Positions 21,001-24,000 of a stretch of DNA of 64,000 nucleotides are shown piece by piece. How positions within the stretch are numbered: position 1 is the first letter of the stretch; each line of letters opens with the position of its first letter. The position numbers were made by a program. This stretch comes from Phycisphaerales bacterium (lineage in GTDB: Bacteria; Planctomycetota; Phycisphaerae; Phycisphaerales; UBA1924), in assembly GCA_965228645.1 (NCBI GenBank), contig OZ245827.1, forward strand, positions 2,803,694 to 2,867,693, in the 5' to 3' direction.

Positions 21001-24000
21001 CAAGACCCGTCGAGTCCGTCAGGCCAGCGACATCCGTCGTGATCTGCACCCGGCCCGTCCAGCCCTCGTAAGACACGCTGCCCGCAAGATCGACCGCAAG
21101 CTCGCTGCCCACGCCAAGGCGGACCGAGCCCGACACCGACTGCGCCTGAAACTCTTTCCCGTCCTCGTCGCGGTGCGTCACGTCGAGCCCGTCGGCCCGA
21201 AGCCGAACATTCAGACCGCCAGGCAGCTTCACCGGCTTGTCCGACTCCGACGCCTCGCTCTTGTCAACCGCGATCAGCCCTCCAAGCGCCCCCTCGCGCT
21301 CGTCGATCGTGACCTCACCCGACACCACGATCGTGCCAAGGTCTTTCCAGTTGAGCGCGAGACCAAGGAGCGAACGCTCGAGCCGAACATCGACATCCGC
21401 AACCTCGCGCAGCGAGCCATCGACGATGCGCAAACTCCGCACGCGCTGATCGCCCCACCAGCTCAGGCCGAGCTTCTCGATCCGCACGCCGCTGCCTAGC
21501 GCCCCGGAAAGCTTCGATTCGACGACGCCCCGCCCGAGCTTGCCGACCAGCGTCGGAGCCGCGCCAACCAATACCAGCAGCACCCCGGCTGTGACCAGCG
21601 CGATCTTCCGCTTGCGACCACGCCTCGGCCCCGGGCGCACAGGCTCGACCACGGCCATCCGCTCCGCCTGCTCCTCACGCTGACGCGCCGAGAGCGTCCC
21701 GGATCCATTGATATCCAACGAACGTCCCTGCTCGCCCACGCGTCTCTCCATTCAACCCGACCACCGAAAACAGCCTATGCCCCAACCCGACAAAGGTGTC
21801 ACAAAAACAAACGACGGCCCCTTTCAGGACCGCCGCGGGTGTTCTTTCGGTTCAACAGCCGGGCGATCAGGCGTCGGCTGTCTTGACAATCTGCCATTCC
21901 TCCAGCTCCACCGGAGCCTGGCGTCCAAAGATCGTCACAAGCACACGGACCAGACCCTTCTCGGGCAGCAGCTCGTCCACAGAGCCCTCGTAGCCCTCGA
22001 ACGGGCCTTCCTTGATCGTGACCGCCTCGCCCTTTTCGAACGTGAGCTTGATGGTCGGCTCGTCCTCGGGCTTCTTGCTGTCCTGGAGCATCTTCTCGAT
22101 CTCGTGCTGCTGAAGCGCCGTCGGACGCCCTGCGGTGCCCACAAAATCGCCCACGCCCGTGGTCTCCTTGATCAGGAAGAACACGTCCTGCGGGATCCGC
22201 CCGTCTTCCTCGAGCCGCATCTCAACAAACACGTAGCCCGGGTAGAGCTTTGTCTGCGTGATGCGCTGCTTGCCGCCCTTGATCGTCTTGGTCTTCTCCA
22301 TCGGCACCAGAATGCGCGACACGAGGTGACTCATGTTCTCGATCTTGACCTTCCGCAGCAGCGTCTCGCGGACCGAGCTCTCCTTGTTCGATGCCACGCG
22401 CAGCACGAACCAGTCCATCCCCTCGTAGCGAACGGGCTCGTCCTCGGCGATCAGGTCGGCCTTCTCGTTCGGCGTGCCGTCCATCGGCTTCTCCGAGGGC
22501 TTCACCTTGCTCTCCGGCGCGGTCTGCCCGGGCTGGTCGTCCTCAAGCGTTCCGTTCTGCGGCTTCTCATGCTCAGACATGGATATCTCGTCCCTTTCCG
22601 TCCGGTCAAAGCCCTGCGAAAGCTCCTCGACCGGGGAGTGTGACATGCTCAGCTTTCGAGCACGCCGATGAGCTTGAAGAACACGCCAAAGCCGTAATCG
22701 ATCACGAAGATCAGCATCGCCAGCAGGAACGAAGCGATGACCACCACCACCGTGGAGCCCTGCACCTCTTTGCGGGTCGACCAGTTGACCTTCTTCATCT
22801 CCCCATCGGTCGCGATCAGGAAGTTCACCGTCTGGCGTTTCATCGCAACAAACAGATAAACAAGCACAGCCCCGACAAGCAGGATCGTGCCCGCGACCGC
22901 GCCCTGGACGTAGATCCGGTCAAAGGCCGCGATGCCGAGCACGCCGCTGGGCAGGACCTCAGCCGTAAACGGAGTCCCCTGCCCGACGATGTCCTCGACC
23001 ACGATCTTCCGCGTGCTCTGGACGATGTCCTCGCCCTGCATACGCACATTGGCGATCACCGCAGAGCCCGTCCGGGCATCGCCCGTGTTGAAACTCTCGA
23101 CCGTCGCGGTCCCGATCAGCTGGTCGCCCTCGGCCTCGGTGATGCCCGGCTGGTACAGATCGACCTGCACGCCCGGGCTCAGATCGCCCTGCACAGCCGC
23201 CAGACTCAGGCGATACGTCGGTGTCGGGGGCTCGTACGTCGCCGCCTGGTTCCACGCCCAGGCCGCGCCCGAGAGCACCAGCGCCCCGGCAAAGCACGCC
23301 GTCAGCACCCGCACCCAGTAACCCTGACCCGGTTTGTAAACGCCGACGCTCATGTGTGCTCGTTTCGCTGATCGGAAACCCTGCGAACCCAACACGCCAG
23401 AGAGGAATCGAACCCCTAACCTGCGGATTTGGAATCCGCTGCTCTACCTAGTTGAGCTACTGGCGTATCCAAAGAGACAGAGGCTCCCGATCCCGCGTGT
23501 GACAGATGAATCGCTCATCCGCCAAACCGCGACCCGGACCCTCGGTCACTTACGCTTGATCTTGTGCATCGTGTGCTTGCGGAGACGCGGGGAGTACTTG
23601 CGCACACCCTCCTTGAGCTTCTCAGGCAGGCCGCCCTTGACGTTCACCGATGTCCGGTAGTTCAGGTCGTCGCACTCGGTGCACTGCAGCCACACGTACT
23701 CGCGAGCAGCTGATTTCTTCTTGGCCATCGGGGCACCCCGTTTTCCACGCGTCGCGGCTGGCGGACCCACCGCCCAACCAAACCACGTTCTTTGAAAGCC
23801 GGTCCGCCCGCTTTCACGAGCGGACCGGAGAAATCAATCCAATCAGTCCGAGTCTTACTCGATGATCGCGGTGACGGTACCCGAACCGATGGTCCGACCA
23901 CCCTCGCGAACAGCGAAGCGAAGACCGGGCTCCATTGCCACAGGCTTGTCACCCAGGTCGACCTCGACCTCGATGTTGTCGCCGGGCATGCACATCTCGG

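What a model noticed while it worked through the whole genome (the two positions that open the first line are those of the whole stretch)
22649..23353. SecE carries a folded periplasmic beta-barrel between TM1 and TM2 across Phycisphaerales
SecE here is 234 aa: the loop between its first two transmembrane helices holds a ~100-aa domain predicted as a six-stranded beta-barrel. Reading: a built-in periplasmic module at the exit of the SecYEG channel that chaperones or hands over emerging proteins. New: a soluble domain fused into a core translocon subunit, conserved across an order.
Evidence so far: SecE Pfam domain only at 177-229. 722 homologs at E<=1e-25; the best 120 are 220-296 aa except one of 175. 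Model pLDDT 87, strands 46-141 at 95-98 between helices 12-37 and 146-170. Barrel matches are only middling (EF-Tu domain III-like, Z<=6.9; calls 194, 195). Paper search 89 gave 0.
(Added by a program. Inside this text positions count along the whole contig: contig position 2,803,694 is position 1 of the stretch shown here. "Call 12" and the like, gene names such as g00115 and contig names such as C1 are that model's own, and its searches are not shown. The text may have been shortened before it was handed on; [...] marks where a part breaks off. The agent that wrote the report below was given it as the finding of a first reader that could run no searches.)

Follow-up and report, generated by a model that had tools for sequence, protein, structure and literature searches.

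The report
SecE with phage-like periplasmic plug-in barrel
In one family of planctomycete bacteria, the small core subunit SecE of the protein-export channel carries an extra 100-residue domain, predicted to be an outward-facing beta-barrel that probably came from a phage baseplate protein and likely serves as an optional docking surface beside the channel's side exit; other planctomycetes have put different domains, including PDZ-like ones, into the same loop.

Summary
In detail: this is the genome's only secE found (234 aa, between tRNA-Trp and nusG), with about 103 extra residues between TM1 and TM2. The insert folds alone as a confident six-stranded barrel (pLDDT 91), is acidic (periplasmic by the positive-inside rule) and is under purifying selection (dN/dS 0.26).

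'Across Phycisphaerales' is wrong. The barrel is limited to the window's family: about 203 of 244 genomes have a long loop and 36 the short ancestral loop. It was not found in SecE of 144 other genomes of the order.

Two new points:
(1) Its closest detectable relative is a domain of T4-like phage baseplate protein VrlC/DUF4815 (HHalign 88%, Foldseek TM 0.6-0.7), not EF-Tu domain III.
(2) Other planctomycetes carry at least six other, dissimilar domains in the same loop, among them PDZ-like ones.

In E. coli this loop touches SecY's lateral gate. Best reading: an optional plug-in docking or shielding module there. A chaperone role has no support; a tolerated passenger remains possible. No description was found in the papers searched.

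The parts
22649..23353 (-). secE, 234 aa, three-TM type with inserted domain
23243..23323 (-). TM1 helix (residues 11-37), preceded by the conserved YKxGQGYWxR motif
22922..23230 (-). Inserted six-stranded beta-barrel (residues 42-144), acidic, no Cys, predicted periplasmic
22991..23182 (-). Part of the barrel (residues 58-121) that aligns with the phage VrlC/DUF4815 domain
22841..22918 (-). TM2 helix (residues 146-171)
22667..22825 (-). Canonical SecE core (residues 177-229): amphipathic helix, EMKKVxW motif, TM3
23392..23467 (-). tRNA-Trp, directly upstream (operon context)
23546..23722 (-). rpmG (L33), context
23855..25054 (-). tuf (EF-Tu), context; its domain III is not the source of the insert
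21867..22646 (-). nusG, directly downstream (context)

Best explanation
This is the cell's ordinary SecE with an optional 103-residue domain inserted in the loop of its accessory TM1-TM2 hairpin; the domain is predicted to be a periplasmic beta-barrel, probably derives from a phage baseplate (VrlC/DUF4815-type) domain, and likely works as a docking or shielding surface beside the periplasmic end of SecY's lateral gate rather than as a chaperone of exported chains. Shown here: the insertion, its patchy spread inside one family, purifying selection, and other domains in the same loop of other planctomycetes. Predicted: the fold and the periplasmic side. Inferred: the position at the lateral gate (from the E. 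coli structure), the phage origin, and the docking role (candidate partners are the large periplasmic domains of PpiD, YidC or SecDF).
For: Core intact, with F178, L179, D183, E185, M186, K188, V189 and W191 invariant in 119 sequences. Charge: residues 1-15 net +2.0; insert net -5.9, negative in 99% of 119; loop after TM2 about 6 K+R. Insert folds alone, pTM 0.84. dN/dS 0.26 in the insert against 0.12 in the core, pooled over 21 disjoint pairs, every pair below 1. Of the best 150 of 165 hits of the insert profile among 1.84 billion proteins, 144 score as SecE, 2 more are SecE fragments by eye, and 4 are long repeat proteins with partial matches. Kater 2019 (PMC6776908, passages): the periplasmic loop of the E. 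coli SecE hairpin reaches SecY TMH8 and the 7-8 helix, at the lateral gate. PpiD contacts the same gate (PMC9643414 passages; PMC8082313 passages). Phage link: the named top Foldseek hits in the viral library are mostly virion proteins (DUF4815, VrlC, fibre, baseplate wedge), TMq up to 0.71; profile-profile 87.8%, E 3.3e-6, 64 columns; nulls: reversed 0.2%, 100 column shuffles max 0.5%, 100 block shuffles max 12.5%; 46 of 49 viral domains score above the 99th percentile of shuffles. At least six other dissimilar inserts occupy the same loop.
Against: No partner is identified. SecY, SecG, YidC, SecDF, YajC and a PpiD homolog are present in barrel-bearing and barrel-free genomes alike (2 barrel-bearing genomes against 3 barrel-free ones, 4), so no gain or loss tracks the barrel. 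Mean column identity of the insert is 24%, and the best-conserved positions look structural, as expected also for a passenger. The viral domain was chosen after a structure search, so the pairwise E-value overstates the case. No Foldseek hit reached E<=0.001. Only 29 of 80 inserts beat the shuffle threshold against the viral profile, and that profile found nothing in 201 Phycisphaerae genomes, the window's own secE included. Location at the gate is borrowed from E. coli.
Confidence: 0.5

Rival explanations
1. Tolerated passenger: the loop of the non-essential hairpin is a permissive site where any stably folding domain can be fixed. Selection only keeps it folded so that the essential SecE is not damaged.
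For: Many dissimilar domains sit at one site. The barrel is absent from 36 of 244 family genomes. Barrel-bearing loci do not form one clade (AU p=0.017; at least 2 changes forced by strongly supported branches). Conservation looks structural. Kater 2019 calls the hairpin accessory with a largely unclear role.
Against: It is kept in about 83% of a large, deep family, with dN/dS 0.26, although a clean deletion is evidently viable. The other orders of the class nearly all keep the short loop, so insertion is not constant background noise.
Confidence: 0.27
2. Client chaperone: the barrel binds emerging polypeptides or signal peptides at the channel exit and hands them on.
For: Predicted position next to the exit and gate. 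PDZ-like domains with GLGI/TLGI loops, a peptide-binding class, occupy the same site in two other families.
Against: No conserved polar or functional motif in the barrel. No profile match to any chaperone family. A PpiD homolog is retained in all 6 genomes tested. The nearest relative is a structural virion domain.
Confidence: 0.15
3. Anti-phage role: a domesticated baseplate domain in the periplasm acts as a decoy or shield against phages that meet or use the Sec channel.
For: Likeness to VrlC, which is tied to baseplates and probably binds receptor fibres (PMC4621102 and PMC7029224, passages). Rapid divergence and patchy presence.
Against: No evidence that these phages contact SecYEG. The insert looks old and ameliorated (GC3 0.85 in both parts). 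The other inserts show no phage match.
Confidence: 0.08

Closest known systems
Three-TM SecE of E. coli (accessory TM1-TM2 hairpin; PMC6776908)
   Same: Same layout: hairpin, amphipathic helix, TM3, conserved core motif; secE directly before nusG.
   Different: The E. coli loop is short (recalled). Here it holds a ~100-aa folded domain.
VrlC/DUF4815 baseplate proteins of T4-like phages (PF16075, phrog_358; phiM9 residues ~424-515)
   Same: Predicted six-stranded barrel with the V-x-L...IGTA-x-V pattern; profile match 87.8% over 64 columns.
   Different: There it is one domain of a 1,700-aa virion protein with an invariant YLFDIKMN motif that SecE lacks. It lies outside the Pfam DUF4815 best stretch. 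Its function is unknown.
EF-Tu domain III / YgfZ C-terminal / T4-type gp7 domain V barrels
   Same: Fold class only (Z 5.7-6.9, rmsd 2.9-3.9).
   Different: No sequence link to EF-Tu domain III (0.65%); weak to gp7 (7%).
PpiD-YfgM, YidC P1, SecDF P1 (periplasmic modules around SecYEG)
   Same: Membrane-tethered periplasmic domains at the translocon exit or gate.
   Different: These are separate proteins with other folds. PpiD, YidC and SecDF are still encoded here; a YfgM ortholog was not resolved.

Membership tests
SecE (PF00584 / TIGR00964) | Profile match above the curated cut-off | tested here: met
   51.1 against 22.7 bits; 42.1 against 27.55 bits
SecE (PF00584 / TIGR00964) | Amphipathic helix, E-x-x-K-V-x-W motif, C-terminal TM | tested here: met
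   Invariant columns; model helices
SecE (PF00584 / TIGR00964) | Single housekeeping copy between tRNA-Trp and nusG | tested here: met
SecE (PF00584 / TIGR00964) | Assembles with SecY | not tested
   The complex-prediction service was unavailable
Three-TM SecE | N-terminus inside, TM1-TM2 loop periplasmic | tested here: met
   Hydropathy and positive-inside bias in 119 sequences; prediction only
VrlC/DUF4815 barrel domain | Profile and structural similarity over most of the domain | tested here: inconclusive
   87.8% and TMq about 0.67; nulls <=12.5%; the viral profile does not recover secE in genome searches
VrlC/DUF4815 barrel domain | Invariant YLFDIKMN motif of the viral set sampled | tested here: not met
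   the viral set was partly collected by this motif, so the test is biased
EF-Tu domain III | Sequence or profile similarity | tested here: not met
   hhalign 0.65%; no GTP_EFTU_D3 match among the 25 of 31 families shown for 80 members
Periplasmic chaperone (PpiD/SurA/Skp type) | Binds unfolded clients | not testable with these tools
   No profile likeness

The most novel reading that the evidence does not exclude
The accessory hairpin of planctomycete SecE is a plug-in socket at the translocon's lateral gate. At least seven different domains have been recruited to it independently, including a domesticated phage baseplate barrel and PDZ domains, and each gives the universal Sec channel a lineage-specific periplasmic arm that recruits partners or grips exiting proteins.
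Probability: 0.35. Interest if true: 0.85.

Novelty: new variant of a known kind. Interest (0 to 1): 0.62.

Why it matters
SecE is treated as a minimal clamp, and the role of its extra N-terminal hairpin is called largely unclear (PMC6776908). Natural variants with and without a folded domain at that loop, inside one family and with close relatives on both sides, give a ready test of what the hairpin does at the lateral gate. They also mark a permissive site for engineering or tagging SecYEG. A phage virion domain fixed inside an essential translocon subunit would be an unusual case of domestication.

Tried and rejected
Origin of the insert.
- From the neighbouring tuf domain III: rejected.
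- FlgT_C (recalled likeness): no FlgT_C match in 5 genomes, so no profile comparison was possible.
- T4 gp7 domain V: weak, 5.6-7%.
- No useful match in Pfam or PHROGs scans of 80 inserts, PDB sequences, tblastn in phages, the ESM Atlas for the insert or Foldseek PDB.
- No paralog of the barrel elsewhere in the own genome (best other E 0.63).
- No internal repeat detected.

Partners.
- An apparent link to PpiD (Pfam hit in 2 barrel genomes, 0 of 3 barrel-free) vanished with a protein query (5 of 5).
- A longer SecY loop in 2 of 3 barrel-free genomes is not consistent.
- YfgM scan uninformative.

Searches that gave nothing usable.
- SecE longer than 281 aa returned nothing, but candidates were crowded out; such forms exist.
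- An rplK motif test failed even genome-wide and was replaced.
- One raw RNA run laid no reads, which is no test.

TM1 as a cleaved signal peptide: small residues at -3/-1 exist, but the same conserved N-terminus occurs in short forms. Judged unlikely; the barrel would be outside either way.

Literature: 0 papers. Searches listed 15 of 27 and 15 of 115 papers, none on natural SecE inserts by title or abstract start. Subscription papers and supplements were not seen.

Full report
Observation. Window 22649-23353 (-) encodes a 234-aa protein in the run tRNA-Thr, tuf, rpmG, tRNA-Trp, secE, nusG. Pfam SecE covers residues 177-229 and TIGR00964 passes its cut-off. It is the only SecE match in the genome. 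The ATG start is shared by 95% of 119 aligned homologs. The best 120 of 806 homologs are 220-296 aa except one of 175. A public contig holds the stretch unchanged (possibly the source), and a contig of a relative from an RNA library spans nusG, secE with its insert, and rpmG; this does not prove transcription.

Anatomy. AlphaFold2 gives helices 11-37, 146-171 and 194-229 and six strands between residues 46 and 141 (pLDDT 87.8). The insert alone folds with pLDDT 91.2 and pTM 0.84. Over 119 sequences the N-terminus is basic (+2.0), the insert acidic (-5.9, negative in 99%, no cysteines) and the loop after TM2 rich in K/R, which fits a periplasmic insert. Identity to the query is 0.30 in the insert against 0.54-0.80 elsewhere. 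Pooled dN/dS over 21 disjoint close pairs is 0.26 for the insert and 0.12 for the core, each pair below 1. The best-conserved insert positions are W/Y47, P43, G61, G81 and hydrophobic strand residues.

Range: one family, not the order. The insert profile hit 37 of 56 genomes of the window's family (code f1; one record title, L106, suggests GTDB UBA1924, which is my inference). In 144 other genomes of the order it gave six weak hits, none placed in secE. Of the 19 family misses I read 16: 6 have the barrel and 10 a short loop. With a short SecE as query, 244 of 251 family genomes matched: 203 in two pieces (long loop), 36 in one full-length piece (short loop), 4 partially and 1 in three pieces (counted by hand). 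Not every long loop was checked to be this barrel. These counts include two unpublished genomes, G297 and G526. Other orders of the class nearly all show the short form, so the short loop is ancestral. On a tree of SecE core, NusG and L33 the barrel appears in three places, and one clade is rejected (p-AU 0.017; quick tree, 59 selected rows, group defined by the trait). This means one gain with several clean losses, or transfer. Either way the barrel is dispensable. Of the best 150 of 165 hits in 1.84 billion proteins, 146 are SecE or its fragments and 4 are repeat proteins with partial matches.

The loop is a hotspot. I read SecE genes chosen for high score or long reading frames, so these samples are enriched: 30 plus 20 across the phylum, 20 in the order, 30 in family f2. 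They show other inserts at the same place: type B (4 genomes) and type C (5) in family f2; PDZ-like domains in f2 and f3 (Pfam E 2e-5 and 5e-5, just under the cut-offs; four more database proteins carry SecE plus PDZ); a repeat-like type in six loci of four families (L013, L170, L175; L018, L025, L167); and single types L010 and L164. No similarity was detected between the barrel and any of these, or between B and C. Short SecEs with about 75% identity to a PDZ-bearing SecE over the matched C-terminal part exist, so some insertions or losses are recent.

What the barrel resembles. Solved structures give only fold-class matches: EF-Tu domain III-type, YgfZ and a T4-type gp7 domain, Z<=6.9. EF-Tu domain III shows no profile link (0.65%). 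In the viral structure library the named top hits are mostly phage virion proteins (DUF4815, VrlC, fibre, baseplate wedge), with TMq up to 0.71 but none at E<=0.001. Following this, phiM9 VrlC residues ~424-515 scored 22.9 bits against a shuffle maximum of 12.2. A 49-sequence profile of that domain aligns to the insert profile at 87.8%, E 3.3e-6, over 64 columns. Nulls gave at most 12.5%, and VrlC windows off the domain under 1%. Against this: the domain was picked after the structure search, only 29 of 80 inserts beat the shuffle threshold in the reverse direction, and the viral profile found nothing in 201 Phycisphaerae genomes. I put homology at about 65%; the direction phage-to-host is inferred from the domain's narrow cellular range. 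VrlC is described as a probable baseplate protein of unestablished function (PMC4621102 and PMC7029224, passages). A solved DUF4815 protein (9euf) matches VrlC on both sides of the barrel but not in it. The passages of PMC13433997 that I read did not let me map that chain to a named protein.

How it likely works. [quoted passage not shown] PpiD contacts that gate (PMC9643414 and PMC8082313, passages). YidC was seen at the back, near SecE TMH3 (PMC13434473, passages and section 10). The barrel would therefore sit beside the periplasmic end of the gate. SecY, SecG, YidC, SecDF, YajC and a PpiD homolog are all present with or without the barrel, so it replaces none of them. I rate an optional docking or shielding surface at 0.5, a tolerated passenger at 0.27, a client chaperone at 0.15 and an anti-phage decoy at 0.08.

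Novelty. It is a member of the SecE family and a new architectural variant. Searches returned no paper, and the listed hits do not concern natural inserts. Subscription literature and supplements were not seen. No earlier finding of this scan bore on it.

Verdict. Real; narrower in taxonomy than claimed, broader as a phenomenon; function unproven. Interest 0.62.

Noticed in passing
L205:1495-2190 (-), L149:955-1641 (+); proteins P0260-P0262, P0278: SecE with a PDZ-like domain (GLGI/TLGI loop) between TM1 and TM2 in two other Phycisphaerales families.
   Followed up: partly
L141, L144, L148, L206 (type B); L142, L143, L145, L219, L224 (type C): Two further ~105-140-aa insert types in SecE of family f2, without Pfam or PHROG identity; not folded.
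   Followed up: partly
L010, L013, L018, L025, L164, L167, L170, L175: SecE of 278-403 aa with 145-270-aa inserts, some internally repeated, in other planctomycete lineages.
   Followed up: partly
L150, L151, L152: SecE of family f3 with C-terminal extensions of about 110-150 aa holding extra hydrophobic helices.
   Followed up: no
window 16799-22646 (-): nusG is followed by a 1,650-aa protein with only faint YhdP/DUF748 likeness, not by rplK, which lies about 440 kb away. The nusG ORF has about 75 extra acidic N-terminal residues; its true start was not checked.
   Followed up: partly
L191-L200: YidC (open frames 731-939 aa) and fused SecDF (1,156-1,223 aa) are long in this family, implying enlarged periplasmic domains.
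   Followed up: no
L232:1908-3917 (-): A divergent 669-aa PpiD-like protein that Pfam barely detects; homologs in all 5 other family genomes tested.
   Followed up: partly
G114 (L001, L175); G572: Genomes with two SecE-like matches, possibly contamination of the assemblies.
   Followed up: no
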